Assembly: GCA_963663035.1 (NCBI GenBank)
Contig: OY760074.1
Span: forward strand, 1,248,001 to 1,312,000
Source: Acidobacteriota bacterium
GTDB taxonomy: Bacteria > Acidobacteriota > UBA6911 > RPQK01 > JADFOI01
Direction: 5' to 3'
DNA: 64,000 bases
The notes under the pieces are model-generated. The model was given only the letters and a program-made list of their open reading frames with translations. It was not told where the DNA came from and did not search any database. Positions 914 through 13,952 of this stretch are shown here, in pieces (the first letter of the stretch is position 1; every line of letters begins with the position of its first letter). Both the position numbers and the translations under genes were made by a program.

Positions 914-929
914 TCGAACCCCAAAGCTC

Positions 930-961
930 ACCTGGCCGTAAAACGCCCAACCCACCCTCTG
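930..961. other. Putative tyrosine-recombinase site S1 (degenerate right arm)
   Basis: ACCTGGCCGTAAA-ACGCCC-AACCCACCCTCTG matches left arm and spacer of sites at 4788, 7126, 13921. Confidence 0.55.
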
Positions 962-1039
962 ACCACCGCAAGGTAAGTCGGCTTAGATTTCCTCAGGCGT
1001 TTCGGGCGTTCGCAGGCCCATGGGCCACATTGTGAACCG

Positions 1040-1194
1040 GTATTATGCGGCTCAGCATAAGCGTTCCGCTTCACGCGGCATGTTCAGCGGAAGTCCTTGC
1101 CTATGAGGTAATTACGGAGGACCTTTCGCCGATTTCTGCTTGCCTCTTATTGGAGCAACTAGGATACTACTGATCAGTATACTCATCGCTACAC
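1040..1194 (+). other. Degenerate attI-platform copy 1
   Basis: Aligns with 3868-4023 and 13260-13416; crossover GTT appears mutated to GCT at 1188. Confidence 0.6.
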
Positions 1195-1221
1195 TGACGG
1201 ACAGGAAGGTGGACAGGCGTC

Positions 1222-1926
1222 TTGGTCATGAATAGTAGTAGTTATAAGTTTGGCGCCGTGAGCGGCGTGCTTGGTGCTGTACTTCTTTTTGCGGGAACCT
1301 CGCTACACCCAATGCAGGCAGATCCGAACGACCCTGTTGCTGCTTTCTCGGAGTACGCGGCCGATCGACATTGGGTTGCCAGTCATCTAACACAGCTCGC
1401 TGGAGTTACTCTCATTGTTGGCGCGCTCTTAGTGCTCGCCCGCGAGTTGGAGTCCGGTGGCCGAGCGGTTCTTCCCCGCATCGCCTCTGGGGGAGCGATC
1501 ACTAGCTTGGCGTTGACAGCTGTTCTTCAGGCAGTGGATGGCATCGCGCTTAAAGTGATAGTTGACGCATGGGCTGGGGTGGAGTCCCCCGAAAAGGCCG
1601 GTTTGTTCCATGCAGCATTCGGAGTCCGTCAGGTCGAAGTCGGGCTCGCCAGTGTCACGAGTATGTTCTTCGGCCTCACAGTTACGGTGTACGGAATTGC
1701 GTTATGGAACAGCAGGCACTATCCCCGATGGGTCGCAGTACTTGCCCTGCTGGGAGGTATCCCCACTTTGGTTGGGGGAGTTCTAATTGCGTACACTGGT
1801 TTTTCAAACTTAGCCATGACGGTCTATATGCCCGCCAGTTTACTTATCCTCGTTTGGGTTATTTTAGTGGGTGCTCTTATGTGGCGCCATGGCACAGCTG
1901 TCGGAGGTGGCCCAGAAACCTCTTGA
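1222..1926 (+). CDS. Multi-pass membrane protein (DUF4386-like), probable former cassette
   Basis: 234-aa ORF with about 6 hydrophobic segments; follows the attI-like platform; GTTAGGC 5 nt after the stop. Confidence 0.7.
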   Translation: MVMNSSSYKFGAVSGVLGAVLLFAGTSLHPMQADPNDPVAAFSEYAADRHWVASHLTQLAGVTLIVGALLVLARELESGGRAVLPRIASGGAITSLALTAVLQAVDGIALKVIVDAWAGVESPEKAGLFHAAFGVRQVEVGLASVTSMFFGLTVTVYGIALWNSRHYPRWVAVLALLGGIPTLVGGVLIAYTGFSNLAMTVYMPASLLILVWVILVGALMWRHGTAVGGGPETS

Positions 1927-2001
1927 GCCAAGTTAGGCGCACAAGACGCAAGGTGGGGTGACAAGATGCCGAGATCCGTAGATACCATCCGCATATATCC
2001 C

Positions 2002-2033
2002 ACTTGGCCGATAAGCCGACTATACGTTCACTG
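2002..2033. other. Putative tyrosine-recombinase site S2
   Basis: ACTTGGCCGATAA-GCCGAC-TATACGTTCACTG, 13-6-13 imperfect inverted repeat. Confidence 0.7.
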
Positions 2034-2127
2034 AAGCGGAAACTTAAGCACTCCGGTGTCTTTGGCGACTGGATTGCTAAGGATCTTTTGGAGGACGGCT
2101 ACAACATTCGCCCAGTGCGGAAGCTAG

Positions 2128-3766
2128 CCGCAATTATTCATAAGTTTGGGGTGAGTGTCGATTTTCTGCGGAAGTTCAGGGCTGAGAGTGTGTTCAGGTG
2201 CGATTACAAGGCGTCCAAGCTTGTTGAGCCGAATAGAGATGAAGCGAGAGCCCCTTCCGGAAACAGCTCGGCCCGCAGGGGGCTGTATATCTGTGTTGGC
2301 GCAGGGAGTCAGGGGACCGTCAGGTGGGACACAGACGGTGCATCAGTAATGCGAAGAGCTTTTGTTCGGGATAAGACGATGCCAGGTGCACCCAGATGCG
2401 ACGAGAAGTTTCCCGAACCCGGGCACCGATTTTGAACAGGCGGCGGCGGAGCGTCTCAATCTCCAGGTTGTGCCAGGGAGTCCCGCACAGGTAATCCCGC
2501 AGGCGCAGGATTAAGACATAGGCCAGGGCGTGGATGAAGAGTCGGAACTGGTTGGCCAGGAAACGGTGGCAGCTCAAGCGATCCATGGCCAGATCTTTTT
2601 TGAAAGCTTTCACGAAGTTCTCGCACTGGCCCCGTCCGATGTAGTGGTCATACAGCTGCCCGGCCGTGAGATCCTGGCGGTTGGTGACCACAAAGCGACG
2701 GTTGAACCCGCGCTCGCTCACTTCCACCTTGGCCACCATGCGCCGCTCCCGGTCCCAACTGTCGGCCTGATAGACGAGCTCGGTGAACTGGCGTTGCTTT
2801 TCTCCTGAGTCGTCATAGTCTGCTTGCACCTGCTCAACCAAGGGCTCGACGGTGGCCGCCAGCCGGGAGTTGCGGGCAAAGCCCACCACATACTGCAGTT
2901 TTTCCTCCTCACAGAACTCGTACAGTGCCGGCGTCGCAAAGCCACTGTCGGCTCGCACTTCGATCGGAACATCGGATCCCAGAACCTGGCGCATCCGGGC
3001 CACCACCCGTTTGAGAACCGCCACCGCGTGGGCGGCCGCCCCCTGGTTGCCGGGCCGCAGTAGCGCACATACCAGATCGCCCGTCTCGCCATCGAATAGC
3101 AGCAGCGGATGATACATGTGCTCGCGATAATAGCCGTGGTAAAAGCTGAACTCCTGCTGCCCATGCGTGACGTCATCCGTGCTGTCGATGTCCAGGATGA
3201 TCTTCTCGGGCCGGCTCTTCTTGCGGTGCTTCAAGTAGGTCTCCAGCAGCCACTGTCCCAGGCGAGTGAGATCCTTCGAGTCCACCGAGTTCTCCAGTCG
3301 CGACAGCGTGGGTTGAGAAGCCAGATCCGGATCGCTTTCCGGCAGCCGATCACACACGGTCTTGAAGATGGGATCCGAGCGCAAGCTGTCGGCATCGTTG
3401 CAGTCCTCATAGCCGGCCACGATCTGAAAGCTGCGCTGGGTGAGCAGTTCGCGAATCTGGTGGCGGACGTAGCGGCTATCTCGAGCGTCCTTCAGGCAGG
3501 AGGCAAAGCCAGCCGTCAGTCCGTGCTGTTGATCCAGGGCGTACAGACACAGCAGCCCGGCATCGGAGGAGAGCCGGCCTCCATCGAATCGAGCCACCAC
3601 TTTTCTGTCAGGGTGAGATGGCAAGTTGATCTGGCAGACTGATGCATCGCTGGGCCGTACCTTTTTGGTTTGGAGTTGTTTCATAACCCCTTTTATATCA
3701 AAGAGGTACGGCATCTTTTTGTGCCCTCGATCAGACCCCTTCTTCAGAATTTATGAATAATCCGGG
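2128..3766 (-). mobile_element. IS1380-family insertion sequence
   Basis: TIRs CCGCAATTATTCATAAGTT / CCCGGATTATTCATAAATT; CTAG on both flanks (2124-2127, 3767-3770). Confidence 0.92.
2320..3684 (-). CDS. IS1380-family DDE transposase
   Basis: FDGGRLSSDAG, LDIDST..HGQQE, RADSGF, RGQCEN..K motifs. Confidence 0.93.
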   Translation of the reverse strand: MKQLQTKKVRPSDASVCQINLPSHPDRKVVARFDGGRLSSDAGLLCLYALDQQHGLTAGFASCLKDARDSRYVRHQIRELLTQRSFQIVAGYEDCNDADSLRSDPIFKTVCDRLPESDPDLASQPTLSRLENSVDSKDLTRLGQWLLETYLKHRKKSRPEKIILDIDSTDDVTHGQQEFSFYHGYYREHMYHPLLLFDGETGDLVCALLRPGNQGAAAHAVAVLKRVVARMRQVLGSDVPIEVRADSGFATPALYEFCEEEKLQYVVGFARNSRLAATVEPLVEQVQADYDDSGEKQRQFTELVYQADSWDRERRMVAKVEVSERGFNRRFVVTNRQDLTAGQLYDHYIGRGQCENFVKAFKKDLAMDRLSCHRFLANQFRLFIHALAYVLILRLRDYLCGTPWHNLEIETLRRRLFKIGARVRETSRRIWVHLASSYPEQKLFALLMHRLCPT

Positions 3767-3867
3767 CTAGTGTTGACGGGGACGTGAAAACAATAATGGT
3801 CTACACCCGCGTCTTGAACCAGGGGCCGAGGGGTGTGCTGAGCCCCATAGACAAAATGCCGGACGGT

Positions 3868-4023
3868 GATATGCGGATCAGTATAAGCCTCTTGCTTCGA
3901 GCGGGATGTTCAGCGGAACTCGTTGCCAGTAAAGCTAATTACGTAGCGTCTTCAACCGACTTCTTTTTGCATCTTATACAGACAACTGGATTAGTATACT
4001 GACCAGCATATTCACTGTTATCC
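3868..4023 (+). other. attI platform copy 2; crossover G^TTATCC at 4017
   Basis: Homology with 13260-13416 holds up to GTTA and then breaks; GTTATCC is the exact reverse complement of the downstream attC R'' GGATAAC. Confidence 0.8.
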
Positions 4024-4039
4024 GCCAAGGATGGTTTAG

Positions 4040-4740
4040 ATGAAGTACTTCACTAAATCAGAATGGATGATTTTAGTCGGGTTGTTTGTGCTCAGTGTTA
4101 TTCCCGTCTCCGCAGGTATATTTCGTCTTGTAGAGCTCGGAGGCGGCGCAGCGATGTTACCTGAAAATCCACGTGTGACCGCGGCACCCATGCCGGTTGT
4201 GTTGCACATTATCAGCGTTGGTCTTTACTGCTACCTCGGGGCCTTTCAATTTCTCCCGAGCATCCGCCGTCACAGCCCCAAGTGATGGCTCATGATTCGG
4301 CGCCTGTGGCATGCAACGGCCGGCTCATGGTTGTTTCAGGCATTTCGGCTCTTTCAGGCCTGTGGATGACGCACTTTTATTCCTTCCCTTATGAGCTTCA
4401 AGGCGATCTTCTTTACTGCGTTCGCATTCTGCTTGGTTCCGCCATGGTCGTATTCATAGTTCTGGGTTTGGCTGCCATTTTAAGACGTGACATTGTTCGG
4501 CATAGTTCATGGATGATTCGCGCCTATGCCATCGGCCAAGGGGCGTCCACCCAGGCGCTATTGCTCATGCCTGGGTCTATGATTGGCGAAGAACCGAGTG
4601 GCCTCGCCAGAGACGTATTGATGACATTCGCCTGGATAATAAATATTGCCGTCGCTGAATGGATCATCCGAAAAGTGTTCAACAAAACGGATAACAAGTC
4701 GCTCAACACGGACGTGGCTACGCCACGCCGGTTAGCTTAG
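4040..4740 (+). pseudogene. DUF2306-like membrane protein cassette gene, interrupted near 4283
   Basis: ORFs 4040-4285 and 4282-4740 together give LHI..GAFQF...GRL...GLWMT...H..WMIRAYAIG.GA.TQ. Confidence 0.75.
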
Positions 4741-4748
4741 CGTTAGCT
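4689..4748 (+). other. Integron attC site
   Basis: GGATAAC-AAGTCGCTCAAC...GTTAGCTTAGC-GTTAGCT, 60 bp, central hairpin CGTGGC-TAC-GCCACG. Confidence 0.88.
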
Positions 4749-4787
4749 CAGCCATGGAGAAGACAATCTTGTCAGCCGCTATCGCCC

Positions 4788-4819
4788 ACTTGGCCGTAAA
4801 ACGCCCTATTCGCCCTTGA
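4788..4819. other. Putative tyrosine-recombinase site S3
   Basis: ACTTGGCCGTAAA-ACGCCC-TATTCGCCCTTGA. Confidence 0.7.
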
Positions 4820-4820
4820 A

Positions 4821-4878
4821 TGATTCCAAGAGGATCTAATCTTCAGGCCAGCCGTAAGGAGGGCGCTGACCATAAAGA
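4821..4878 (+). pseudogene. Orphan copy of the recombinase 5' leader/RBS
   Basis: CAAGAGGATCTAATCTTCAGGCCAGCCGTAAGGAGGGCGCTGACCATAAAGA is near-identical to 7804-7855; start ATG changed to ATA. Confidence 0.75.
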
Positions 4879-5162
4879 GTCCTTAAGGTTGACCAGAGTG
4901 CGGCGAACCGTGTGCTTCCCGCCTTCTATTGCAGAACGCCACCTGGTAGATGCATATCCCAGTCCGGCTTCTGTGAAGGTTGAAAACATCCCCCTCAAAA
5001 TAGATGCACCACTAGTCCGTTTGAGAGCTATTTCAGCAACCAACTCATCAGGGTCGACTAGCACCGGTCTGATTGCCCGACCCCAAACCATGGATCTCTC
5101 GTATGCTGAGATAAACCAAGAGTCCTATTGGCCTGACCTGCCCCCACGAACGAGTCCACCCT

Positions 5163-6060
5163 CTATGCTAGACCCGGGACCATTTGAAGTCCACTCCAAG
5201 GGATTGGATCCAGTGCCTGCGACCTAGGTAGTTTGGCCTCTGGCGCCGGCGGCCGATAGGCCAAGGCGCTGTGAGGCCGGATCTGATTGTAATCCCTCCG
5301 CCAGCGTTCTACCAACACCTTGGCTTCCCCCAGCGTGTCGAAGATCTCCATGTTCAGCAGCTCATCCCGTAGTTTCCCGTTGAAACTCTCAATGTACCCA
5401 TTCTCCCAGGGGCTGCCCGGCTCGATGTACAAGGTCCTTACCCCAACAGCCTGCAGCCAGTCCCGGACCGCCTGTGCCGTAAACTCCGATCCGTTATCGG
5501 ACCGGATAAACTCAGGCACTCCCCGATCAACGAATAACTCCGCCAGCCGGTCCAACACGTCTTGGTGATTCATCTGCCGTTTCACATCAATGGCGAGGCA
5601 CTCTCTGGTGTACTCATCCAGGATCGTCAATAGCCGAAAGGCTCGCCCATCATGGGTCCGTTCATGCACGAAATCATAGCTCCAGACGTGGTTCTTGCGA
5701 GCCGCTCGTAACCGAACACAGGAACCGTCATTAAGCCACAGCCTCCTTCGTTTCGGCTGTCTGGACGGGACTTTCAGCCCTTCTTGTCTCCACAGCCTCT
5801 CCACCCGCTTAGGATTCACCTTCCACCCTTCCCCATGAAGTATCGCCGTGACCCGCCGGTAGCCATAACGCCCGTATTGCTTAGCAACTCCACCATCCGG
5901 GCCACCAATCGGGCCTCATCATCGGGAATTTGCCTTTCCCTTCGCTGGGTCGATCGAACCTGTCCCAGCACTTGGCAGGCCCGACGTTCGGAGACTCGCT
6001 CTGCTCCTAATCGCTCTCGTACCCACATCACCGCTCGTCTCCTGTTCGCCGGGCCTAGAA
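5163..6060 (-). pseudogene. IS3-family transposase OrfB with an extra frameshift near 5884
   Basis: [30 protein letters not shown] core; the YGRYGYRR segment is out of frame by 1 nt. Confidence 0.8.
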
Positions 6061-6333
6061 GTTTCCCGAGGACACTTCCTTCAGGATCTGCTTGTCCAAA
6101 GACAGATCCGCCACCAGCTTCTTCAACCGGGTATTCTCCTTCTCCAACACCTTCAACCTCTTGGCCTGGTCCAACCGGAGCCCTCCGTACTCTTTGCGCC
6201 ACCGGTAGTAGGTCTGCTCGCTCACCCCCATCTGCTTCGACACCTGTCCCACCCTCTGTCCTTGGGCCAGACCCACCTCTGCCTCACGCAGCTTCATGAT
6301 GATCTGTTCTGCCCTAAACCGCTTCCCTGCCAT
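6055..6333 (-). CDS. IS3-family transposase OrfA
   Basis: HTH GVSEQTYYRWRKEYGG and leucine zipper; ends GNF at a likely -1 frameshift site. Confidence 0.9.
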   Translation of the reverse strand: MAGKRFRAEQIIMKLREAEVGLAQGQRVGQVSKQMGVSEQTYYRWRKEYGGLRLDQAKRLKVLEKENTRLKKLVADLSLDKQILKEVSSGNF

Positions 6334-6399
6334 CCTTGCCTCCTTCCTAAACCGGAAATCCTAACATTCAAACTGGACTCGTTTTAGGGGGCAAGGTCA

Positions 6400-6609
6400 A
6401 GTGGCGCATGGACTACAATCAGCAAAGACCTCATAGCTCGCTTAGGGATCAAACGCCGGAGGCTTTTGCCCTCGCTAGCGAGGGCAAAGAAAGGGGAGGC
6501 ACTCACGTGAGTAGGGTGAGTGTTCTAGAGCCCCAAGGGGTGGGTGTTTCACCCATCCCAACCTGAAAATACTAACCCTATGCTTGGTACAGTTTTCCGG
6601 GGCAGGTCA
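6400..6609 (+). mobile_element. 3' remnant of a second IS3-family element
   Basis: Encodes WRMDYNQQRPHSSLRDQTPEAFA and ends ...TTGGTACAGTTTTCCGGGGCAGGTCA. Confidence 0.8.
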
Positions 6610-6659
6610 GTGGTCCCAGGTCTAACTTAGAAGGTGGACTCGTTCGTGGGGGCAGGTCA
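6610..6659 (+). mobile_element. Solo 50-bp IS3 end, inverted copy of 5134-5183
   Basis: Reverse complement TGACCTGCCCCCACGAACGAGTCCACCTTCTAAGTTAGACCTGGGACCAC. Confidence 0.85.
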
Positions 6660-7004
6660 GACTTCGCCGCACTGAGGAATTACTGCCGTCATCTGGAGTT
6701 GAACTTTGCCTCCTTTGCCGTGCTGACTCCTCTGCCGGGGACTGACCTATATCACGAGGTGAGAGATCGGCTCATCACGCGCAACTATGATTGCTTTGAC
6801 TTCATTCACACGCTGCTCCCGACGACACTCCCTCTCAAGGATTTCTATGCGGAGTATCACGATCTTTATAAAAACGGGATCGCCCTGAGCAAGCAGCTCT
6901 CTTTGCTTAAGAAGTATCCATTACGAGAAATCCCAGGCTTACTGGCAAAGGGACGCCGATTCTACAAGAGACTCAAGACGGCCTACCTGGACTATGAGAA
7001 TTGA
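6660..7004 (+). pseudogene. C-terminal fragment of a B12-binding radical SAM-like protein (cassette gene)
   Basis: FAVLTPLPGTDLY...YDCFDFIHTLLPTTLPLKDFY; 5' part removed at the IS end. Confidence 0.65.
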
Positions 7005-7027
7005 ACGTTGTTGGCGTGTCACTAGCC

Positions 7028-7091
7028 GTCTAACCAGTCGCTCCAGCCGCCGCGGGCCCGAGGCCCGCGCGGGCTGAGCTCATCGTTAGCT
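7028..7091 (+). other. Integron attC site
   Basis: GTCTAAC-CAGTCGCTCCAGC...GCTGAGCTCATC-GTTAGCT, 64 bp, GC-rich central hairpin. Confidence 0.9.
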
Positions 7092-7125
7092 CAGCCATAG
7101 AGAAGCCAATCACCACCCTTTCGCC

Positions 7126-7157
7126 ACTTGGATGTATAACGCCCTTACCGGAAACTG
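7126..7157. other. Putative tyrosine-recombinase site S4
   Basis: ACTTGGATGTATA-ACGCCC-TTACCGGAAACTG. Confidence 0.72.
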
Positions 7158-7180
7158 ATCGACAACCGAAGGTTCAGGTT

Positions 7181-7211
7181 TGGTGCAAAGTGGTGCATAT
7201 TGATGTATAAT
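7181..7211 (+). promoter_or_regulatory. Putative sigma70 promoter with TGGTGCA direct-repeat operator
   Basis: GTGCAA-N17-TATAAT; TGGTGCA at 7181 and 7191, directly upstream of the RHH gene. Confidence 0.5.
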
Positions 7212-7219
7212 TGTAGTTT

Positions 7220-7477
7220 ATGGCAACCATGGAAAAACCCATTCGTCAGAGCATCTCGCTGCCCTCTCGTCTGGCCAAGCGGGTCAAGGCTTTGGCCAAG
7301 CACCAGAAGACCAGCGCGAACCGAGTTCTCGTTGAGCTCATCGAGACTGGGCTGGAGTCGAAGGAAGCTGAGAAACACCGGTTCTTTAAACTGGCAGACC
7401 GGTTGAGTACTTCGACCGATAGAGCAGAGCAGCGGCGCATCAAGGAGGAGCTGGCACGCCTGACGTTTGGGGAGTAG
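7220..7477 (+). CDS. Ribbon-helix-helix (CopG-like) protein, putative antitoxin
   Basis: RQSISLPSRLAKRVKALAK...SANRVLVELIETGL. Confidence 0.75.
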   Translation: MATMEKPIRQSISLPSRLAKRVKALAKHQKTSANRVLVELIETGLESKEAEKHRFFKLADRLSTSTDRAEQRRIKEELARLTFGE

Positions 7478-7720
7478 ATGCCGAAAATTCAATGGAAGAA
7501 TCTCCCGCCTGCCCTCCGGGATCATCTCTTCGATCGACTTCGCGAGCGAAAAGTCACAGTCGAGAACCTCTATCAGTTGAAACTTTGGCGCGAAACCGAG
7601 CCCGAGGCTCCAGAAGGACTTTGGTACAAGGACTTTGGATCGTTCAAGATCTGTGGGGAAGGGAGATATCCGAAGACCTTTCTACTGCGCGGTCAGCCCG
7701 CCAAGGGGGTGAAGCTCTGA
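7478..7720 (+). CDS. Small hypothetical protein, putative toxin
   Basis: 80 aa; start abuts the RHH stop (TAGATG); GGGGAG RBS. Confidence 0.6.
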   Translation: MPKIQWKNLPPALRDHLFDRLRERKVTVENLYQLKLWRETEPEAPEGLWYKDFGSFKICGEGRYPKTFLLRGQPAKGVKL

Positions 7721-7848
7721 AGTACTCCCATTAATGCTTGGAAGACCTCCCGCGACCTCACGGCTACCTCTCGGCCCTATGACCCTCTACTCACCTCCGG
7801 ATGCAAGAGGACCTAATCTTCAGGCCAGCGGTAAGGAGGCCGCTGACC

Positions 7849-8799
7849 ATGAAGAGAAAAAGCAAAAGGAGTTCCAAGAAGGTTTCCAAGACCAAAACCA
7901 GGCTTCAGCTTCCCGATCTCGATCAAGCCAAGGCAGCCGTGCTCAACAGTCTAGGATCACCGGAGTCGCAACGCGGGTATCACCATGCCATCGACGAGTT
8001 CATTGGTTGGTATTGCTCTGAACCGCGCCTCTCCTTCAACAAGAGCGTGGTAACCCGCTACCGAATCCACCTCGAGGCTCGCCAACTGGCACCAGGAACC
8101 ATCAACGTCAGACTCGCAGCGGTGCGCCGTCTCGCTTACGAGGCGGCCGACTTTGGGCTGTTGAGCCCGGAACTCGCAGCGGGCATACGCCGGGTCAAGG
8201 GAGCGAAAAAATTGGGCGTTCGCCTTGGCAACTGGCTGACGGCTGAAGAGGCTCGCACCCTGTGGCAACTTCCTAATACCGAGACTCTCAAAGGCAAGCG
8301 TGACCGAGCAATCCTGGCAACCCTCTTAGGTTGTGGACTTCGTCGCCGTGAGCTTGCTGAGTTGACCTTCTATCACCTCCAACGTCGTGAAGATCGCTGG
8401 GTAATCATCGACCTGGTTGGCAAAGGGGGCCATGTTCGGACAGTCCCGGTTCCAGACTGGGTCAAACGAGCCATCGACATCTGGCTCACCGCAGCCGGAA
8501 TTGCGAGCGGTCGACTCTTTCGGTGCGTTTGTAGAGCGGGAACCGCCTGGGGCAACGGCATGACGGAGAAGGTTGTCTGGCATGTCGTCAAAAACTATGC
8601 TGCCAAGCTCGGAGCTCCAAAGCTCGCTCCACATGACCTTCGTCGATCCTGTGCACGCCTCTGTCACGAAGCCGGCGGCGAGTTGGAACAGATCCAATTT
8701 CTGCTCGGCCACGTCTCAGTGCAAACGACAGAAAAGTACCTTGGGTGCAAGCAGCGCCTTCGCGGAGCCGTCAACGATCGAATTGGAATTGAGCTATGA
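7849..8799 (+). CDS. Tyrosine recombinase/integrase (Xer-like, not IntI)
   Basis: AAGGAGG RBS; catalytic set GLRRRE, GKGG, HDLRR, LGH, TTEKY; no IntI-type C-terminal tail. Confidence 0.93.
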   Translation: MKRKSKRSSKKVSKTKTRLQLPDLDQAKAAVLNSLGSPESQRGYHHAIDEFIGWYCSEPRLSFNKSVVTRYRIHLEARQLAPGTINVRLAAVRRLAYEAADFGLLSPELAAGIRRVKGAKKLGVRLGNWLTAEEARTLWQLPNTETLKGKRDRAILATLLGCGLRRRELAELTFYHLQRREDRWVIIDLVGKGGHVRTVPVPDWVKRAIDIWLTAAGIASGRLFRCVCRAGTAWGNGMTEKVVWHVVKNYAAKLGAPKLAPHDLRRSCARLCHEAGGELEQIQFLLGHVSVQTTEKYLGCKQRLRGAVNDRIGIEL

Positions 8800-8830
8800 C
8801 ATAGTCAGGTGCAAGGGTATACGACATCCC

Positions 8831-8862
8831 ACCCGGACGACTTGCCGACTATACGTCCATGT
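8831..8862. other. Putative tyrosine-recombinase site S5
   Basis: ACCCGGACGACTT-GCCGAC-TATACGTCCATGT, 31 nt after the recombinase stop. Confidence 0.65.
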
Positions 8863-8971
8863 GAACAAGTAGGCCTGCCACATCAGCAACGATCAGTCAT
8901 ACAGATTTAGACAGGCTGAGATGCATCTAACATCCTTTGCAGGACATAACCTGCGAGAGTTGCCCAGATGG

Positions 8972-9595
8972 TTAACACCTATCACCGAGGCTCATCATTA
9001 GAAAGCCACAGAATGCAGGATTGTTCGGCGCAAGATTTGCGTTTGATTTGGCTCTGATTTCCAAAAGATTCTTACGGAATTTGCGATAGAAATCCCATGT
9101 GGGGGTGGGCCTATATTCAAGATCTAGTTCAAGTTTCTCTATGATCAATTTTGCGGTCGTCGGCTTCACAAAAACCTCTTTTCGCGGACGGTAGTATGCC
9201 TGAATTACCGTAGCAAGTGACCACTTGGCTAGTTTGTTCTTCATAAGCTGATCGACAAAAAGCTCAAACCCAATCCTCTCTTTGCCGTGAAGGAGTTCGA
9301 AGAGCGCCTCCGACACGGCTTCCTTCTCCTTTGTCTTCATTGCTTTTGTATAGTCACGGAATTTCGGCTTTTCAAACATCGAAATCATCGTCGATCGACC
9401 GACGAGTTTCGCTGTTTCAGTGACCACGTAATGAGGGTCGTTGAAATTGTCTTTTGCGAAGGCTTCCTTTGCCAAAGCCTCAAATTGTTCCATCTTGTGC
9501 TTTTTCCCAAGTTCAACCAGATCAGGGTGCTTGAACCCCCCGGGGTACTGCCTAAGAAATTTCCTTTCGGCCTCTTGGAGTACCTTGGCATTCAT
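8972..9595 (-). CDS. Hypothetical protein
   Basis: 207-aa ORF with AGGAG RBS. Confidence 0.75.
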   Translation of the reverse strand: MNAKVLQEAERKFLRQYPGGFKHPDLVELGKKHKMEQFEALAKEAFAKDNFNDPHYVVTETAKLVGRSTMISMFEKPKFRDYTKAMKTKEKEAVSEALFELLHGKERIGFELFVDQLMKNKLAKWSLATVIQAYYRPRKEVFVKPTTAKLIIEKLELDLEYRPTPTWDFYRKFRKNLLEIRAKSNANLAPNNPAFCGFLMMSLGDRC

Positions 9596-9797
9596 ATTGT
9601 TTCTCCTAGTGCGATCTTATGTATGCTTTGCGTCCATCAATCATCTTCAGAACGTCCCGACTCATCATGCTCTTCATCATGAATGAGTCCATTAGGGAGA
9701 CTACCCAGTTCTTTGGCGCATAGTGGGTCTGCAACCCAACCCTCGTTGTGTTGTCGTCGAGCTCTCCGGACACCCCACAGCATCTGGCCACTGATAC

Positions 9798-10385
9798 TCA
9801 GATTGCGCTATTGGGCCTGTAGATGCTCATCATCGCGCCAGTCGAGCAAGTATCCGTTTTTATGAGCGTCAAACCTGTCGGTACGGTGCCCTGAGCGAAT
9901 AGGCGTTTCCCAGAGCCAACAAGGACGGGAAAGATCCATAGTCGGAACTCATCGATAAGCCCATGGGAAAGGAGGGTCTGGATCAGTTGCCAGCTTCCAT
10001 GAACTTGTAGCAAGGGACCGTCTTGGTCCTTGAGTCGAGAGACCTCCGCCGCAATGTCCCCTGTGATGGGCACGGAGTTTTTCCACTCGAGTTTGCTCAA
10101 GGTGGATGTCGCAACGAACTTGGTTGCGTTGTTAAGTTTGTTGGCAGGCGGGTCGTTGCCGGCGTCTGGCCAATGAGCTGCGAAGCCCTCGTAGGTCTTT
10201 CGGCCGAGTAGAAGGTCGTAGGGAGCGGCCATCGCCTCTTCCATCACCTGCTCCATCACGTCGTCCCAACAGTCGCGGGCCCAGCCGCCGTGCATAAATC
10301 CGCCCGAAGGATCTTCCTCGGGACCGCCGGGCGCCTGCATGACGCCGTCAAGAGTCAAAAATGTTAAAATCGCAAGATTCCTCAT
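9798..10385 (-). CDS. Dihydrofolate reductase-like (RibD C-terminal domain) protein
   Basis: TLDGVMQAPGGPEED, LLGRKTYE, GLIDEFRLWIFPVLVGSGKRLF. Confidence 0.88.
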   Translation of the reverse strand: MRNLAILTFLTLDGVMQAPGGPEEDPSGGFMHGGWARDCWDDVMEQVMEEAMAAPYDLLLGRKTYEGFAAHWPDAGNDPPANKLNNATKFVATSTLSKLEWKNSVPITGDIAAEVSRLKDQDGPLLQVHGSWQLIQTLLSHGLIDEFRLWIFPVLVGSGKRLFAQGTVPTGLTLIKTDTCSTGAMMSIYRPNSAI

Positions 10386-10430
10386 GACGATCTCCTTGTT
10401 CTGCTTGCCGCTAGTTCATATGTCCTAGCT

Positions 10431-10856
10431 TCAGCGTGTGGTAGTTGAGTTGAATTTCGCTCGTACGTCTGCGATGTAGCTCGACTTATCTCCTCTAAAC
10501 CGATCCAGGTGTTCCCTCGTAACAGCAGTGTATAGATCGTACTTTGACGCCCAAATAAACATCTCGATGAACATAGGAAGTAGATCGAGAGCCTTCTCAG
10601 TGGGGGAGTAAATATTCTTCCTGAGATTGTTCGGATCTCGGGTCTTTTTTAGTATCTTGAGCTTCTCTAGCTTAGCGAGTCGATCCGCGAGGATATTGGT
10701 GGAGATGCCTTCCTCGGACTCCAGGAACTCGTGATAATACTGTTTTCCCAAGATGATGACGTCTCTCAAAATGAGGAGGCTCCACTTGTCACCGAGCAGC
10801 TCAAGAAAGTATGCGCATGGGCACCCGGTTCGGGTCTTGTACTTCATATCAACCAT
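10431..10856 (-). CDS. HxlR-family winged-helix regulator
   Basis: GCP...LELLGDKWSLLILRD, EGISTNILADRL. Confidence 0.88.
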   Translation of the reverse strand: MVDMKYKTRTGCPCAYFLELLGDKWSLLILRDVIILGKQYYHEFLESEEGISTNILADRLAKLEKLKILKKTRDPNNLRKNIYSPTEKALDLLPMFIEMFIWASKYDLYTAVTREHLDRFRGDKSSYIADVRAKFNSTTTR

Positions 10857-11091
10857 AGCAAAACACCTGTTAACTTGTAAAATGATAGCATTAATAGGTA
10901 CATAAAAGCAAGCTCTATTTAAAAGGGTAAATAACATATAAACATATTATAAACAAATGGTTAATAGAAGTTCAATTGAGTAGTGTTCAGACATATAGAA
11001 AAAAATATCCATCAATAACTTGCATAATACAAGTATCATTGGTATACATAGTCTCCGACCATGAAACCTATTAACAAAGGAGGAAAAGAAA

Positions 11092-11457
11092 ATGGAAAAC
11101 ACAGTCGTATGGTTTGACATCCCGGTCACCAATATTGAGCGGGCAAAAGAATTCTATCAAGCAGTGATCGGTGCAGAACTCACAGACATGGAGAATGGGC
11201 CCGCCCGGTTTGCCATGTTCCCATTCGCGCCAGGTATCGCGTCAGGTGCACTCGTTCAGAGTCCTGACAGTAAACCAAGCGCTTCGGGCACCACGGTCTA
11301 TCTAAATGGAGGGAAAGATCTTTCAGACCCGTTATCACGCGTAGAAAGTGCTGGTGGCAAGATCGTAATGCCAAAGACCAGTATAGGAGAAAATGGGTTT
11401 ATGGCCCGTTTCCAGGACACTGAAGGCAACGTCGTAGCTCTACATAGTATGCAGTAG
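11092..11457 (+). CDS. VOC/glyoxalase family protein
   Basis: VVWFDIPV..IERAKEFY, F.DTEGNVVALH; AAGGAGG RBS. Confidence 0.9.
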   Translation: MENTVVWFDIPVTNIERAKEFYQAVIGAELTDMENGPARFAMFPFAPGIASGALVQSPDSKPSASGTTVYLNGGKDLSDPLSRVESAGGKIVMPKTSIGENGFMARFQDTEGNVVALHSMQ

Positions 11458-11592
11458 GAAGGAGAGCCTGGCTGTTTGGCTCGCGATTTTGGGATTTGAT
11501 TGAGGCCCGGCCTGCCGGTAAACTAGCCGTCGGGCCGGGCCTATCGAAACGATCCCTGAAAACAGGTAATCAACACCACGGAGACTCTAAAT

Positions 11593-12300
11593 ATGCAAAA
11601 TCATAAGATAGTATCGAAAGAAGAGTGGCTTGTTGCACGAAAAGAGCTTTTGGCTAGAGAGAAAGAATCTACCCGACTACGTGACCAATTGAGTGCTGAG
11701 CGGCGGAAACTCCCCTGGGTCAAGGTCGAGAGCGAGTATCTTTTCGACACTCCGAAGGGTCAAGAAAGCCTGTCGGATTTATTCGAGGGACGTAGCCAGT
11801 TGATTATCTATCACTTCATGTACGGGCCTGACTGGGCGGAAGGTTGTCCCAGCTGTTCCTTTTGGGCGGACAATTTCAACGGAATTAATATTCACCTCAA
11901 CCATCGAGACATCAATCTGGTTGTTGTCTCTAGGGCACGACTGGAGACGCTAGAAGCCTACAAAAGGCGCATGAATTGGAGTTTTAAGTGGGTATCATCG
12001 TTTGGAAGCGATTTCAATCGTGACTACAGCGTTTCATTCACTCCCGAGGAAGCGGAAAAAGGGGAGGTATTCTACAACTTTCGCGTCGGCAAGTTTCCCA
12101 GCGAGGAGGCAGCCGGAATCAGTGTGTTTTACAAGAACGAGCAGGGAGACGTCTTTCATACATATTCGTGTTACGCACGCGGTTTGGATATGGTAAACGG
12201 CGCATACCACTACATGGATCTCGCACCCAAAGGGCGTGATGAAGGCAGTTTACCTTACACGATGGCTTGGCTCAGTCGTCATGATCAGTACAAGGATTGA
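11593..12300 (+). CDS. DUF899 thioredoxin-like protein
   Basis: RRKLPWV, QLIIYHFM, GCPSCSF, HTYS.YARG. Confidence 0.88.
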   Translation: MQNHKIVSKEEWLVARKELLAREKESTRLRDQLSAERRKLPWVKVESEYLFDTPKGQESLSDLFEGRSQLIIYHFMYGPDWAEGCPSCSFWADNFNGINIHLNHRDINLVVVSRARLETLEAYKRRMNWSFKWVSSFGSDFNRDYSVSFTPEEAEKGEVFYNFRVGKFPSEEAAGISVFYKNEQGDVFHTYSCYARGLDMVNGAYHYMDLAPKGRDEGSLPYTMAWLSRHDQYKD

Positions 12301-12524
12301 AGTCCTGTCCCCGTATTCGTCAGTATCGCATCAACGGAGTTGCTCACCCGCTGGAGAATTGAAGCAAAAAAATGACTGCACCAACTAACACTGTTTTTCG
12401 CATACGTCATCTCCGCCAAACCTTTCGGAATTTTTGGGTTTGGTGCTCAAATGGACACGTCCTTCCAAGACTCCATCAAACGGTAAAGCGTTCAGTCCGA
12501 GGCGATATCGAAGTCGTAGATGAC

Positions 12525-12590
12525 GGTATGGATGCCACCTTGACCGATCTCCTCTAGAACTTTGTAGTGGCTGATGGTCGTGCCGACCAT
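12525..12590 (-). pseudogene. N-terminal stub of a Ser/Thr kinase gene
   Basis: Reads MVGTTISHYKVLEEIGQGG, matching kinase starts at 26091, 28808, 32605. Confidence 0.7.
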
Positions 12591-12651
12591 GACGTCTTCC
12601 TCAATGTGGGTGTGATTCTTGTTCAATCCTAAAACCATTGGGAGTGAAAAG

Positions 12652-12857
12652 GCAATCAAAATTGCCCCTTATCTTGGCTGGAGCGGGGTGGAATGGGGTG
12701 GAGTGGGTTTGGCGCGGGCACACTTCGGGCACAATTTGGGTACTTTGGGGTTGAGTCAGGGAGACTCAACTTGGCTGAAACCCGCGTCAGAAGCGTGCCC
12801 GGGGAGGGACTCGAACCCTCACGAGGGAAACCCTCACAGGATTTTAAGTCCTGTGCG
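12652..12857. repeat. ~200-bp direct repeat copy 2
   Basis: Aligns with 702-907. Confidence 0.85.
12796..12857 (-). pseudogene. tRNA-Leu(TAA) 3' fragment (att-core-like)
   Basis: Identical to 846-907 over 62 nt; 5' part absent. Confidence 0.9.
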
Positions 12858-13121
12858 CTTTTTTGACCGGGCGACTGGGCATGCAGCTGGTTCAGGCTAC
12901 CTGAGCGTCGTCATATAGGAACCTCAATAACGGATGGGTCCATTCTTCGGATAAGTATATACGGGCAGTCCCTTCAGGCTCCTTGCACCTCGTTTGGTTA
13001 GGATACCCACATGTGTTGTGTCTCTTTCGCTCTAACAACTGCACTGTTGTATGCCCTTGGGCGAAACCAGTTTCTAACCGCCTTCACGCCGACTTGAACG
13101 CACCGACCAACCAGAGCGGGC

Positions 13122-13153
13122 ACATGTACGGTAAGCGGACTATACGTCCAAGT
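13122..13153. other. Putative tyrosine-recombinase site S6
   Basis: ACATGTACGGTAA-GCGGAC-TATACGTCCAAGT; inverted relative to 13921-13952. Confidence 0.78.
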
Positions 13154-13154
13154 G

Positions 13155-13261
13155 GACTAGGAACACGAGGATGTTAAGAATAACAAATGGGGCACACCGA
13201 CATCTTGAATCGGGGACCGATGGGGAGTTCGGACCCCATGGACAAAATGCCAGACGGGTAA
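13155..13261 (+). pseudogene. intI: IntI C-terminal remnant (frameshifted)
   Basis: LG/HEDVK ... HTDILNRGPMGSSDPMDKMPDG*; DNA aligns with 3781-3869. Confidence 0.72.
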
Positions 13262-13416
13262 TATGCGGGTCAGTATAAAGACTTCTGCTTCGAGTGCCAT
13301 GTCCAGCGGAACTCGTTGCCAGTAAGATTACTTACGTAGCGTCTTCAGCCGATTTCTGCTTGCGTTTTATACGGACAATTATGAGGATATACGGATCAGC
13401 ATATTCACTGTTAGCC
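13260..13416 (+). other. attI platform copy 3; crossover G^TTAGCC at 13410
   Basis: CAGCATATTCACT-GTTAGCC; GTTAGCC is the exact reverse complement of attC R'' GGCTAAC. Confidence 0.82.
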
Positions 13417-13451
13417 ACACACCACAACCAGGAAGCGAAGGAGCGAAGAAG

Positions 13452-13814
13452 GTGATCAAGTTTGTCATGTGTTTGACACGCCACCCGCGTATGACTCGCG
13501 AAGAATTCAGGGACTACTGGAAGAACAAGCATGGTCCGTTCTTTATGAAGAATGCAGATAAGATGGGTGCCCAGAGGTACGTGCAATCTCACACCCTGAA
13601 CACGCCGCTAAATGAAGGCCTCAGGGCCTCCAGAGGGATGCTTCCTGAATATGACGGCGTTGCGGAAGTCTGGTTCGAGTCAGAAGAAGCGCTTGTTGCG
13701 GGAATGAGCTCTCCTGAGGGGCAGCAACTTGGCGCAGCCCTGCTGGAAGATGAGGGGAACTTCATCGACCATTCCAAATCATCGGCGTTTATCGTTGAGG
13801 AGCACGAATTCTAG
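13452..13814 (+). CDS. EthD-domain (dimeric alpha-beta barrel) protein, cassette gene
   Basis: MTREEFRDYW...HGP, YVQSH, YDGVAEVWFES, DE.NFID. Confidence 0.88.
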   Translation: MIKFVMCLTRHPRMTREEFRDYWKNKHGPFFMKNADKMGAQRYVQSHTLNTPLNEGLRASRGMLPEYDGVAEVWFESEEALVAGMSSPEGQQLGAALLEDEGNFIDHSKSSAFIVEEHEF

Positions 13815-13816
13815 GT

Positions 13817-13879
13817 GGCTAACAGGGCGATGCAGGCGGACCGGCCTCCGGCCGGCCGCTGATCGCCAAGGCGTTAGCT
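13817..13879 (+). other. Integron attC site
   Basis: GGCTAAC-AGGGCGATGCAG...CTGATCGCCAAGGC-GTTAGCT, 63 bp. Confidence 0.9.
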
Positions 13880-13920
13880 CAGTCATGGAGAAGACGATCT
13901 TCTCAGCCACCCTTTCGCCC

Positions 13921-13952
13921 ACTTGGACGTATAACGCCCTTACCGTGCAAGT
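13921..13952. other. Putative tyrosine-recombinase site S7 (most symmetric; island right border)
   Basis: ACTTGGACGTATA-ACGCCC-TTACCGTGCAAGT. Confidence 0.8.

What the first reader, a model, noticed from the sequence alone, without database searches (positions are those of the whole stretch)
930..13952. Seven 13-6-13 dif-like sites in two spacer classes partition the island around a lone tyrosine recombinase
Seen: class I sites (arm A ACTTGGACGTATA, spacer ACGCCC, arm B) lie at 930, 4788, 7126 and 13921. Class II sites (arm B, spacer GCCGAC/GCGGAC, inverted arm A) lie at 2002, 8831 and 13122. Sites are direct within a class and inverted, with different spacers, between classes. S4 and S5 bracket the TA pair plus recombinase; S5 is 31 nt after its stop. 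Established: two binding arms around a 6-bp spacer is the Xer/dif architecture, 13-bp arms occur in single-recombinase sites such as XerH/difH, and alternating pdif sites define mobile modules in Acinetobacter. Inference: the 7849-8799 enzyme excises or duplicates DNA between like-spacer sites, and could swap modules between unlike pairs as a natural cassette-exchange system.
Basis: partly seen in the sequence, partly recalled or inferred. Interest (0 to 1): 0.88.

Follow-up and report, generated by a model that had tools for sequence, protein, structure and literature searches.

The report
Recombinase-linked gene-cassette sites, two spacer types
The seven short sites are real recombination sites of a widespread, apparently undescribed gene-shuffling system, in which a Xer-like recombinase gene sits between two non-interchangeable site types that also separate swappable cargo genes.

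Summary
Observation confirmed. All seven 32-bp sites lie at the stated coordinates. A matrix that scores the arms only finds ten more elsewhere in the 3.59-Mb genome. All 17 carry one of the same two unscored spacers (ACGCCC; GTCGGC or GTCCGC).

Close homologues of the 7849-8799 Xer-like tyrosine recombinase, mostly in Acidobacteriota MAGs, repeatedly have a class I site at the start codon and an inverted class II site after the stop.

Across 80 related loci the two classes lie in opposite orientation in 30 of 31 loci that hold both. I-to-II intervals are mostly the recombinase or 16-36 bp. II-to-I intervals are variable cargo of 1.1-8.8 kb.

Left and right flanks reassort at the sites. One 43-bp inner unit sits in three unrelated contexts.

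The host has its own XerC, XerD and a canonical dif, unlike these sites, 4 kb away.

Best reading: a dif-module or integron-like cassette system with its own recombinase and two heterospecific sites. Catalysis, circles and exchange are inferred, not shown. Sites also occur in relatives where no recombinase was found.

No description turned up in five literature searches.

The parts
930..961 (+). S1, class I site (ACCTGGCCGTAAA ACGCCC AACCCACCCTCTG). It starts 2 nt after a tRNA-Leu-like sequence.
   Evidence: (21.5 bits, the weakest site)
2002..2033 (-). S2, class II site (oriented: CAGTGAACGTATA GTCGGC TTATCGGCCAAGT)
   Evidence: 26.2 bits
4788..4819 (+). S3, class I site, followed at 4827-4879 by a 53-nt remnant of the 5' region of a recombinase gene
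   Evidence: (27.2 bits)
4827..4879 (+). Remnant of a second recombinase module, 92% identical to 7804-7856. It is cut off downstream, where the IS3-like insertion (5134-6399) now lies.
   Evidence: (4827-4879 against genome 1255804-1255856)
7126..7157 (+). S4, class I site, left end of the module that holds two small ORFs and the recombinase
   Evidence: (27.7 bits)
7220..7720 (+). Two adjacent small ORFs (85 aa at 7220-7477; 80 aa at 7478-7720). Their layout resembles a toxin-antitoxin pair, but the family is not established.
   Evidence: RelB-like antitoxin, E 0.0018, 18.5 bits against a cut-off of 50; no Pfam family; unnamed 80-aa clusters only
7849..8799 (+). Xer-like 'simple' tyrosine recombinase of 316 aa. 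The ORF is open from ATG 7801, but homologues are 316-318 aa. Catalytic residues are R165, K192, H262, R265, H288 and Y297.
8831..8862 (-). S5, class II site, 31 nt after the recombinase stop; right end of the recombinase module
   Evidence: (27.1 bits)
13122..13153 (-). S6, class II site (spacer GTCCGC), the best match to the arm consensus
   Evidence: 34.4 bits
13921..13952 (+). S7, class I site, the last site of the array, about 150 nt from the stop of the chromosomal citramalate synthase gene
   Evidence: (33.4 bits)
1222..1926 (+). Cargo gene of interval S1-S2. It matches DUF4386, just under the Pfam cut-off.
   Evidence: 27.1 bits against 27.6
4040..4740 (+). Cargo gene of interval S2-S3: a DUF2306 membrane protein read as two overlapping ORFs (4040-4285 and 4282-4740)
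8972..12300 (.). Cargo of interval S5-S6: an unknown 207-aa protein, a RibD_C-like reductase, an HxlR regulator, a glyoxalase-fold protein and DUF899. A tRNA-Leu-like sequence follows at 12795-12880.
13452..13814 (+). Cargo gene of interval S6-S7 (EthD domain)
13186..13416 (+). Conserved leader of about 230 nt between a site and its cargo gene. Other copies lie at 3795-4023 (80% identical) and 1036-1185 (about 73%).
2124..3770 (-). IS4-type insertion sequence (DDE_Tnp_1_4 transposase). It is a secondary insertion about 90 nt after S2, with dozens of near-identical copies in the genome.
5134..6399 (-). IS3-type insertion sequence, a secondary insertion in interval S3-S4, with dozens of near-identical copies in the genome

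Best explanation
The sites are double-stranded core sites of about 34 bp: two inverted arms around a 6-bp crossover spacer. They belong to the Xer-like tyrosine recombinase encoded at 7849-8799.

There are two site types. They share the arms but have incompatible spacers, and they always lie in opposite orientation to each other. I infer that the enzyme recombines I with I and II with II, but not I with II. Arrays would then lose or gain segments as circles and never invert them.

The recombinase gene itself sits between a class I site at its start and a class II site after its stop. Elsewhere the same I-II pair stands 'empty', 2-36 bp apart. Cargo lies in the II-to-I intervals. A cargo segment together with an I-II junction therefore behaves like a cassette: it can leave or enter an array through either site type. 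A segment flanked by I on one side and II on the other can be replaced by two successive crossovers, which is cassette exchange.

Shown here by computation: the sites, the two classes, the orientation rule, the linkage to the recombinase, reassortment of flanks at the sites, arrays in other genomes, absence of the island from congeners, intact catalytic residues, and a separate host dif.

Inferred: binding, cleavage positions, spacer specificity, circles, and the exchange itself.
For: 1. Seventeen sites in the genome fall into the two spacer classes although the spacer was not scored.

2. Linkage to the recombinase. Of 362 relatives found, 80 loci holding 81 copies were examined.
- 24 of 81 have a class I site in + orientation at the start. 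20 of 81 have a class II site in - orientation 13-50 nt after the stop.
- 19 complete I-recombinase-II units measure 1067-1108 bp.

3. Class-specific matrices give 121 hits in 1.32 Mb against 1 in shuffled sequence. This is partly circular, because 44 of the hits trained the matrices.

4. Orientation counts are I+ 46, I- 2, II- 61, II+ 12. The classes are opposite in 30 of 31 loci that hold both.

5. Of 33 I-to-II gaps, 8 are 16-36 bp, 21 are about 1.0 kb (the recombinase) and 4 are larger. The 25 II-to-I gaps span 1.1-8.8 kb.

6. Flanks reassort at the sites.
- Class I: 9 pairs alike on the left only, 28 on the right only, 0 on both sides, of 1540 pairs.
- Class II: 7, 19 and 1 of 2926 pairs.
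- One inner unit (arm B, 17 nt, arm B) is 42-43 of 43 identical in three contexts whose left flanks match 9-10 of 45.

7. Single-gene arrays separated by these sites exist in relatives. Only the sites repeat within them.

8. The 20-kb island is missing at the same locus in three congeners.

9. The recombinase carries R, K, H, R, H and Y, invariant or nearly so in 22 sequences.

10. The host has XerD-like and XerC-like genes. A single-copy canonical dif lies at window 17981-18008, at the GC-skew maximum, and is conserved in 12 of 21 relatives. It is unlike the sites.

11. A metagenome contig joins an S7-like class I site to S5 with 13 other letters between. That is the same flanks with an empty junction in place of the recombinase module (table 5c; one contig, depth 15).
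Against: No experiment or read-level evidence exists. Only assembled contigs could be laid, and no excision junction between two sites of this window was seen.

Sites occur without the recombinase.
- In the host's family f1, the class II core pattern is in 11 of 15 genomes and class I in 10 of 15.
- The recombinase was found, at E of 1e-40 or better, in only 4 of 15, and it is intact only in G000.
- The seven genomes with sites but no recombinase are multi-contig assemblies, 76-96% complete. Loss in assembly, relic sites and another enzyme all remain possible.

Outside f1 the two core patterns are at the level of the reversed-pattern control, except in G029: class I 3 real against 16 control matches, class II 15 against 14.

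No site lies in the empty locus of the congener G002, so the island did not demonstrably enter through a pre-existing site. Its left 7 kb holds no site.

The model does not explain how an empty I-II pair arises or reaches a new place.

The window breaks the tidy pattern in places: S1-S2 holds cargo in an I-to-II interval, and S3-S4 and S5-S6 are same-class neighbours.

More distant homologues, such as the 63% copy on a Granulicella plasmid, show no such sites.
Confidence: 0.6

Rival explanations
1. The sites are plasmid-dif-like sites used by the host's own XerC/XerD, as in Acinetobacter dif modules. On this reading the recombinase between S4 and S5 is only a passenger or a helper.
For: Seven genomes of the host's family carry sites and even arrays although no copy of this recombinase was found. 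The host encodes XerD-like and XerC-like proteins. In Acinetobacter, the host XerC/D recombine such sites (passages of PMC13141974).
Against: The host dif (ACTTTACATAA TATTTC TTATCCGACGT) is unlike the sites. The sites hug this recombinase gene on both sides in many distantly related genomes, with the class I site at the start codon. The recombinase-less genomes are incomplete assemblies, and a repeated unit of about 1.1 kb is easily lost from them. Many homologues lie on contigs of only 1.1-1.6 kb.
Confidence: 0.1
2. The I-recombinase-II unit is an insertion-sequence-like transposon whose transposase is a tyrosine recombinase. The two sites would be its terminal inverted repeats, and the empty I-II pairs its miniature non-autonomous derivatives.
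For: - The unit has a uniform length of 1067-1108 bp and inverted ends.
- Short I-II pairs are scattered in several genomes.
- The family is very large and often sits on contigs about one unit long.
- The unit stands in unrelated flanks.
Against: - No target-site duplication is seen in 21 units.
- No arm A-spacer-arm A 'empty target' was found in 3.6 Mb of genome plus all loci, 0 matches.
- Sites also stand alone and as direct class II repeats between single genes.
- The DNA outside the unit is conserved in subsets and reassorts as well.
Confidence: 0.1
3. The inverted I-II pair works as a folded single strand, like an integron attC site or the CTX phage attachment site. The arms would pair and the two unlike spacers would form an unpaired bubble. 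One strand would be exchanged and replication would finish the job.
For: Three things would follow directly from such a fold:
- the two classes are always inverted relative to each other;
- their spacers are never complementary;
- empty pairs are only 2-36 bp apart.
The layout of attC as two inverted simple sites with an unpaired central spacer is recalled, not tested here.
Against: - There is no covariation between partner arms. In 13 empty pairs, arm A identity is 9.85 of 13 against 9.79 +/- 0.25 for shuffled partners, and arm B 5.92 against 6.15. The 23 recombinase-flanking pairs give 8.13 against 8.00.
- Arm B of the partners does not pair in folds.
- Many sites are solitary or kilobases from the next.
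- The protein scores 37.8 bits on the integron-integrase model against a cut-off of 265.
Confidence: 0.08
4. The sites are now inactive relics, or they serve another purpose, such as control of the recombinase gene or of neighbouring genes. On this reading the mosaic flanks reflect old events only.
For: - The island is riddled with insertion sequences and holds a truncated second recombinase copy.
- Copies in four relatives are broken.
- The class I site overlaps the 5' end of the recombinase gene, which could give self-regulation.
Against: - The window's recombinase is full-length with all catalytic residues.
- Sites are conserved base by base across genomes whose recombinases are only 65-93% identical, while flanks are not.
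- A 43-bp unit is nearly identical in three contexts, which points to recent movement.
Confidence: 0.07

Closest known systems
Acinetobacter dif modules (pdif sites on Rep_3/OrfX plasmids, recombined by host XerC/XerD)
   Same: - Short arm-6 bp spacer-arm sites in alternating orientation bound discrete modules.
- Two module kinds alternate, according to which arm faces inward.
- Recombination needs matching spacers.
- Fused modules and toxin-antitoxin modules occur.
- Modules are added in pairs.
These points come from passages of PMC13141974.
   Different: - Here a dedicated recombinase is itself a module.
- The sites are unlike the host dif.
- The arrays are chromosomal, in a different phylum.
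- Spacers are not free. There are two fixed classes tied to orientation, so no two inverted sites share a spacer and inversion is excluded.
- One interval type is almost always the recombinase or empty.
Integrons (IntI, attI, attC gene cassettes)
   Same: Both have arrays of mostly single-gene cassettes separated by recombination sites of a tyrosine recombinase. Arrays without a recombinase nearby also occur, like attC clusters that lack an integrase. An empty I-II pair of 66-100 bp is built, like attC, from two inverted simple sites. The attC layout and the integrase-less clusters are recalled.
   Different: - The protein is not an integron integrase: 37.8 bits against a cut-off of 265.
- There is no sign of single-strand folding.
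- The sites are 32-bp double-stranded Xer-type cores.
- The recombinase lies inside a site pair, not beside an attI with a promoter.
- Cassettes carry their own conserved leader.
Single-recombinase Xer systems with a linked site (XerS/difSL, XerH/difH)
   Same: In both, one Xer-like enzyme has its site directly beside its gene. For XerS/difSL the linkage is stated in the abstract start of PMC2731167, seen in the listing. Asymmetric arms are recalled.
   Different: Those systems have one site per chromosome, at the terminus, for dimer resolution. Here there are 17 sites in two classes spread over the genome, and the host keeps XerC, XerD and dif. The protein scores 54 bits on the XerS model against a cut-off of 267.
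Engineered recombinase-mediated cassette exchange with heterospecific lox or FRT sites (recalled, not a natural system)
   Same: Two sites share their arms but have incompatible spacers. They flank a segment, so that two crossovers swap it without inverting or deleting it.
   Different: That system is man-made. Here the arrangement is natural and conserved across many genomes, and exchange is only inferred from mosaic flanks.

Membership tests
Tyrosine recombinase / phage integrase family (PF00589) | Catalytic domain match above the curated cut-off | tested here: met
   76.2 bits against 27.1, residues 145-314 of the 332-aa reading
Tyrosine recombinase / phage integrase family (PF00589) | Catalytic residues R-K-H-R-H/W-Y | tested here: met
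   R165, K192, H262, R265, H288, Y297. They align with XerD, are invariant or at least 90% conserved in 22 sequences, and were placed.
XerC / XerD (chromosome dimer resolution) | Score above the equivalog cut-off | tested here: not met
   XerC model 112.1 bits against 335; XerD model 101.6 against 330
XerC / XerD (chromosome dimer resolution) | Acts at one dif site near the replication terminus | tested here: not met
   17 sites are spread over the genome. A separate single-copy canonical dif lies at window 17981-18008 and is conserved in 12 of 21 relatives. Activity itself cannot be tested with these tools.
Integron | Integron-integrase model with its extra segment | tested here: not met
   TIGR02249 gives 37.8 bits against 265, on the C-terminal 66 residues only. 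There is no insertion relative to XerD in the alignment.
Integron | attC sites that act as folded single strands (paired arms) | tested here: not met
   Partner arms do not co-vary in 13 empty pairs or in 23 recombinase-flanking pairs. The inner arms do not pair in folds. The sample is small, so the test is weak.
dif-module system (Acinetobacter type) | Modules bounded by inversely oriented arm-6 bp-arm sites, with two module kinds alternating | tested here: met
   Window order is I+, II-, I+, I+, II-, II-, I+. The classes are opposite in 30 of 31 loci.
dif-module system (Acinetobacter type) | Sites resemble the host dif and are recombined by host XerC/XerD | tested here: not met
   The sites are unlike the host dif. 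The enzyme that acts on them cannot be tested with these tools.
Insertion sequence or transposon with terminal inverted repeats | Target-site duplication, and empty target sites | tested here: not met
   No duplication in 21 units. No arm A-spacer-arm A site in the genome or the loci.
Type II toxin-antitoxin pair (ORFs 7220-7477 and 7478-7720) | Match to a known toxin family and a known antitoxin family | tested here: not met
   The only hit is a RelB-like antitoxin model at 18.5 bits against a cut-off of 50. No Pfam family matched. The nearest Atlas clusters are unnamed. Only the two-small-adjacent-ORFs layout fits.

The most novel reading that the evidence does not exclude
This is a widespread, so far undescribed natural cassette-exchange platform of Acidobacteriota and their neighbours. 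A Xer-type recombinase travels as a cassette between two heterospecific sites. Cargo genes with an I-II junction behave like integron cassettes, but through plain double-stranded sites. The fixed pair of spacers makes the arrays exchangeable yet non-invertible.
Probability: 0.4. Interest if true: 0.85.

Novelty: new variant of a known kind. Interest (0 to 1): 0.78.

Why it matters
If the inferred mechanism holds, this is a third natural way of building gene-cassette arrays with a tyrosine recombinase, beside integrons and Acinetobacter dif modules.

It would be the first of these with a dedicated, self-carried Xer-type enzyme and two orthogonal site types.

The protein family is very large. 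At least 7998 clusters at 90% identity scored E of 1e-30 or better, which is the cap of the search. It is common in soil Acidobacteriota, a dominant and poorly tractable phylum, so it may account for much of their accessory-gene turnover.

The system is directly testable, because sites and enzyme are small and defined. At least one cultured strain carries a complete I-recombinase-II unit: Occallatibacter savannae AB23, locus L065.

A compact recombinase with two naturally heterospecific 32-bp sites could also serve as a genome-engineering tool.

Tried and rejected
Rfam search of window 1-16000 at E up to 1: only the two tRNA-like sequences, below the gathering score.

Phage collection: no homologue of the recombinase at E of 1e-20 or better.

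Granulicella plasmid homologue (63% identical): no site of 15 bits or more nearby. The one hit of 12.2 bits was taken as noise.

Structure prediction. An alignment of 22 close homologues gave a poor model (mean pLDDT 46.6, pTM 0.36). I ran no fold search on it and draw nothing from it.

Promoter and terminator scan of 7000-9000: nothing above the shuffles.

Reads. Only Logan contigs were available (4 runs). Contigs end at or beside S4, S5 and S7. That may reflect repeats in the assembly graph and is not evidence of recombination. Most listed joints are cross-mapping between paralogous leaders, insertion sequences or tRNA-like repeats. No junction between two sites of this window was seen. Parts without cover are not interpreted.

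Empty locus. No site lies in the 150-bp intergenic region of congener G002, nor in the regions fetched from G003 and G005. An integration target could therefore not be defined.

Hairpin reading: tested by folds and by partner covariation, without signal.

Transposon reading: tested by looking for target duplications and for empty palindromic targets, without signal.

Literature. Searches found nothing on this system. The library lacks most subscription journals.
- Passages read through 'find': PMC13141974, PMC3025954, PMC8138268.
- Every other paper named was seen only as a search listing with the start of its abstract.

Recalled and not tested here: attC anatomy, the CTX phage attachment hairpin, heterospecific lox/FRT exchange, and the arm lengths of difH.

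That it is an acidobacterium is only a guess from the recombinase's closest relatives.

Full report
THE OBSERVATION

- Class I (arm A, ACGCCC, arm B) lies on the + strand at 930, 4788, 7126 and 13921.
- Class II, read from arm A to arm B, has GTCGGC (GTCCGC in S6) and lies on the - strand at 2002, 8831 and 13122.
- S5 begins 31 nt after the recombinase stop.

The arm A 13-mer with up to two mismatches occurs 5 times against 0.36 expected, and none of 100 shuffles reached 5.

The window is bases 1248001-1312000 of a single 3.59-Mb contig. I built a matrix from the arms alone, with the spacer columns zeroed, and scanned the genome. It gave 18 places of at least 20 bits. Seventeen have ACGCCC (10) or GTCGGC/GTCCGC (7) in the unscored spacer. 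The exception is a 20.1-bit place at 695885.

The 'spacer' is therefore a conserved part of the site, and there are two site types. Ten sites lie outside the window. Among them are two pairs in which a class I and an inverted class II site start 49 bp apart (genome 2363319/2363368 and 2884194/2884243).

THE ENZYME

- It matches the phage-integrase catalytic domain at 76 bits.
- It scores far below the curated cut-offs of every named family: XerC 112 against 335, XerD 102 against 330, XerA 94 against 220, XerS 54 against 267, and integron integrase 38 against 265.
- The nearest solved structures by sequence are a XerC-like protein (4a8e), XerD (1a0p), XerA and XerH.
- The catalytic residues R165, K192, H262, R265, H288 and Y297 are present, and invariant or nearly so in 22 homologues.

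It is thus a two-domain, Xer-like 'simple' tyrosine recombinase and not a member of a named family. The genome holds one copy; the next best matches are 26-29% identical. Those matches include typical XerD-like and XerC-like proteins.

A scan of one genome per species found 362 relatives. The best 80 loci (65-93% identical) are nearly all Acidobacteriota MAGs. One cultured strain, Occallatibacter savannae AB23, is among them. These loci hold 81 copies.

Under strict criteria, 24 of 81 have a class I site in + orientation that ends within a few bases of the start codon. Twenty of 81 have a class II site in - orientation 13-50 nt after the stop.

Class-specific matrices gave 121 hits of at least 18 bits in 1.32 Mb, against 1 in shuffled sequence. 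This is partly circular, since 44 hits trained the matrices. Hits were found in 49 of 80 loci.

Nineteen complete I-recombinase-II units are 1067-1108 bp long and have no target duplication.

Over 56 class I and 76 class II non-redundant sites, information content is confined to bases -1 to +33 and drops to zero in the flanks.

The motif is therefore strongly linked to this recombinase, and the proposed refutation fails.

ARCHITECTURE

In the 80 loci the counts are I+ 46, I- 2, II- 61 and II+ 12. The two classes are in opposite orientation in 30 of 31 loci that hold both.

The intervals are strikingly unequal.
- Of 33 I-to-II gaps, 8 are 16-36 bp, 21 are about 1.0 kb (the recombinase) and 4 are larger.
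- The 25 II-to-I gaps range from 1.1 to 8.8 kb.

Relatives of the host carry arrays without any recombinase copy nearby.
- G004:C136 has class II sites at 3848, 5018 and 6030, then a I/II pair 2 nt apart at 7469/7503, with single ORFs between.
- G006:C121 and G029 show similar arrays.
- Within these arrays only the sites repeat.

The window fits with some disorder:
- S1 - DUF4386 gene - S2;
- S2 - leader, insertion sequence, DUF2306 gene - S3;
- S3 - recombinase remnant, insertion sequence, radical-SAM fragment - S4;
- S4 - two small ORFs, recombinase - S5;
- S5 - five genes and a tRNA-like sequence - S6;
- S6 - leader, EthD gene - S7, then the chromosomal citramalate synthase gene.

EVIDENCE THAT DNA IS EXCHANGED AT THE SITES

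Left and right flank types assort independently. For example, the right half 'ATCTCGTCCTCTT gctgctgagcg' follows a tRNA-like left flank at 2363319 and an unrelated left flank at 2884243.

Counted over all pairs of sites:
- class I: 9 pairs alike on the left only, 28 on the right only, none on both sides, of 1540;
- class II: 7, 19 and 1, of 2926.
Many of the 'right-only' pairs simply show that the recombinase unit stands in unrelated surroundings, with the break at the site.

The sharpest case is a 43-bp inner unit (arm B, 17 nt, arm B). It is 42-43 of 43 identical at two places in this genome and one in G008. The left flanks match 9-10 of 45, and the outer arm A differs at 2-3 of 13 positions. 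That puts the breakpoint at or next to the spacer.

A marine-sediment contig joins an S7-like class I site through 13 other letters to S5. Those are the window's flanks with an empty junction where the window has the recombinase module (one contig, depth 15, to be read with caution).

The whole 20-kb island (genome 1241953 to about 1262092) is missing between the same two genes in congeners G002, G003 and G005.

NOT THE HOST DIF

Cumulative GC skew peaks at about 1.236 Mb. At window 17981-18008 lies ACTTTACATAA TATTTC TTATCCGACGT, in an intergenic stretch 4 kb right of S7.
- It is the best match in the genome to the recalled canonical dif arm.
- It is single-copy.
- With up to 3 mismatches it is conserved, once each, in 12 of 21 relatives, with no control matches. 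In G003, G004 and G005 it lies on the same contig as the cimA-flank match, within 1.8-2.1 kb of it.
The host therefore has its own XerC, XerD and dif, and the island's sites are a different sequence.

HOW IT MOST LIKELY WORKS (INFERENCE)

One enzyme binds both arms of both site types. The 6-bp spacer is the crossover region, so only like sites recombine. All class I sites of an array are direct repeats, and so are all class II sites. Recombination can then only delete or insert circles, never invert.

A circle made by I-by-I or II-by-II recombination carries cargo plus an I-II junction and can enter any array at either site type. That reproduces the observed pattern of cargo in II-to-I intervals, with junctions (empty or holding the recombinase) in I-to-II intervals. 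A segment between unlike sites can be replaced by two crossovers.

The closest described system is the Acinetobacter dif-module system. There C and D modules alternate, spacers must match, modules are added in pairs, and fused modules and toxin-antitoxin modules are common (passages of PMC13141974).

The differences here are four:
- a dedicated recombinase that is itself a module;
- sites unlike the host dif;
- chromosomal arrays in another phylum;
- two fixed spacer classes tied to orientation.

WHAT SPEAKS AGAINST IT OR STAYS OPEN

Nothing shows catalysis, cleavage positions or circles.

In the host's family, site patterns are present in 10 (class I) and 11 (class II) of 15 genomes. The recombinase was found in 4 of 15 and is intact only here. 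The other genomes are incomplete multi-contig assemblies. Many homologues sit on contigs of 1.1-1.6 kb, so loss in assembly is plausible but unproven.

Outside that family the two core patterns are at control level, except in G029.

The origin and spread of empty I-II pairs is unexplained.

No site marks the empty locus in congeners.

RIVALS TESTED

A folded single-strand (attC-like) mechanism would neatly explain the inverted, non-complementary pair. However, partner arms show no covariation and the inner arms do not pair.

An insertion-sequence-like tyrosine transposon is not supported. There are no target duplications and no palindromic empty targets.

Action by host XerC/XerD cannot be excluded, but it fits the tight linkage to this gene poorly.

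NOVELTY

Five full-text searches and passages of the tyrosine-recombinase classification paper gave no description of this system. Automatic annotation calls the proteins 'site-specific recombinase XerD' or 'tyrosine-type recombinase/integrase'. The library lacks most subscription journals, and supplements were closed.

I rate it a new variant of a known kind: site-bounded modules or cassettes moved by a tyrosine recombinase.

Noticed in passing
window 17981-18008: Candidate host dif, ACTTTACATAA TATTTC TTATCCGACGT. It lies in an intergenic stretch at the cumulative GC-skew maximum (about genome 1.236 Mb). It is single-copy and conserved with up to 3 mismatches in 12 of 21 relatives. The island ends only 4 kb from it.
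   Followed up: yes
window 13186-13416, 3795-4023, 1036-1185: A conserved leader of about 230 nt stands between a site and three different cargo genes. It recurs in 8 of 21 relatives, counting the host, several times next to class II sites. Its core holds two inverted boxes, TATGCGGATCAGTATA and TATACTGATCAGCATA, about 125 nt apart. They could be operators or a long RNA stem. The stem positions hardly vary, so the fold is undecided.
   Followed up: partly
window 845-927 and 12795-12880; genome 2363235-2363316, 3548899-3548984, and fragments near 69830, 74043 and 2880769: There are several copies or fragments of a tRNA-Leu(UAA)-like sequence, together with about 110-170 nt of its downstream flank. 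The two window copies score below Rfam's tRNA threshold and have aberrant 5' parts. The flank is a multi-copy repeat in the genus. Two copies end 2 nt before a class I site.
   Followed up: partly
L006, L008, L009, L012, L013, L019, L030, L035, L038, L040 (related loci): A sub-group of recombinase homologues has CCTGRTAA GTCGCG TTACCGGACA about 25-29 nt upstream. In several loci the inverted copy, with the same spacer, lies downstream. Identical spacers in inverted sites would allow the gene itself to be inverted. Class I may be a derived spacer variant that blocks this.
   Followed up: partly
window 7772-7790: Just upstream of the recombinase reading frame lies a weak likeness to the right half of a class I site: CGGCCC TATGACCCTCTAC against S3's ACGCCC TATTCGCCCTTGA. 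This suggests that the two small ORFs were joined to the recombinase module by decay of a site. The comparison was by eye only.
   Followed up: no
window 2124-3770 and 5134-6399: An IS4-type and an IS3-type element are each present in dozens of near-identical copies (99-100%) across the genome. That is an insertion-sequence expansion.
   Followed up: no
window 4040-4740: The DUF2306 cargo gene reads as two overlapping ORFs (4040-4285 and 4282-4740). Contigs of two other runs differ by several small deletions at 4285-4306. It may be a frameshifted gene here.
   Followed up: no
window 9815 and 12877: Contigs of all four runs laid join 9815 to 12877 on opposite strands. 12877 is at the 5' end of the tRNA-like sequence. 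This suggests an inverted arrangement of the segment between them in other strains. No site was found at either place.
   Followed up: no
window 7849-7910 (protein residues 1-20): The recombinase starts with a lysine/arginine-rich tail (MKRKSKRSSKKVSKTKTR). The tail varies among homologues and is absent from XerC/XerD.
   Followed up: no
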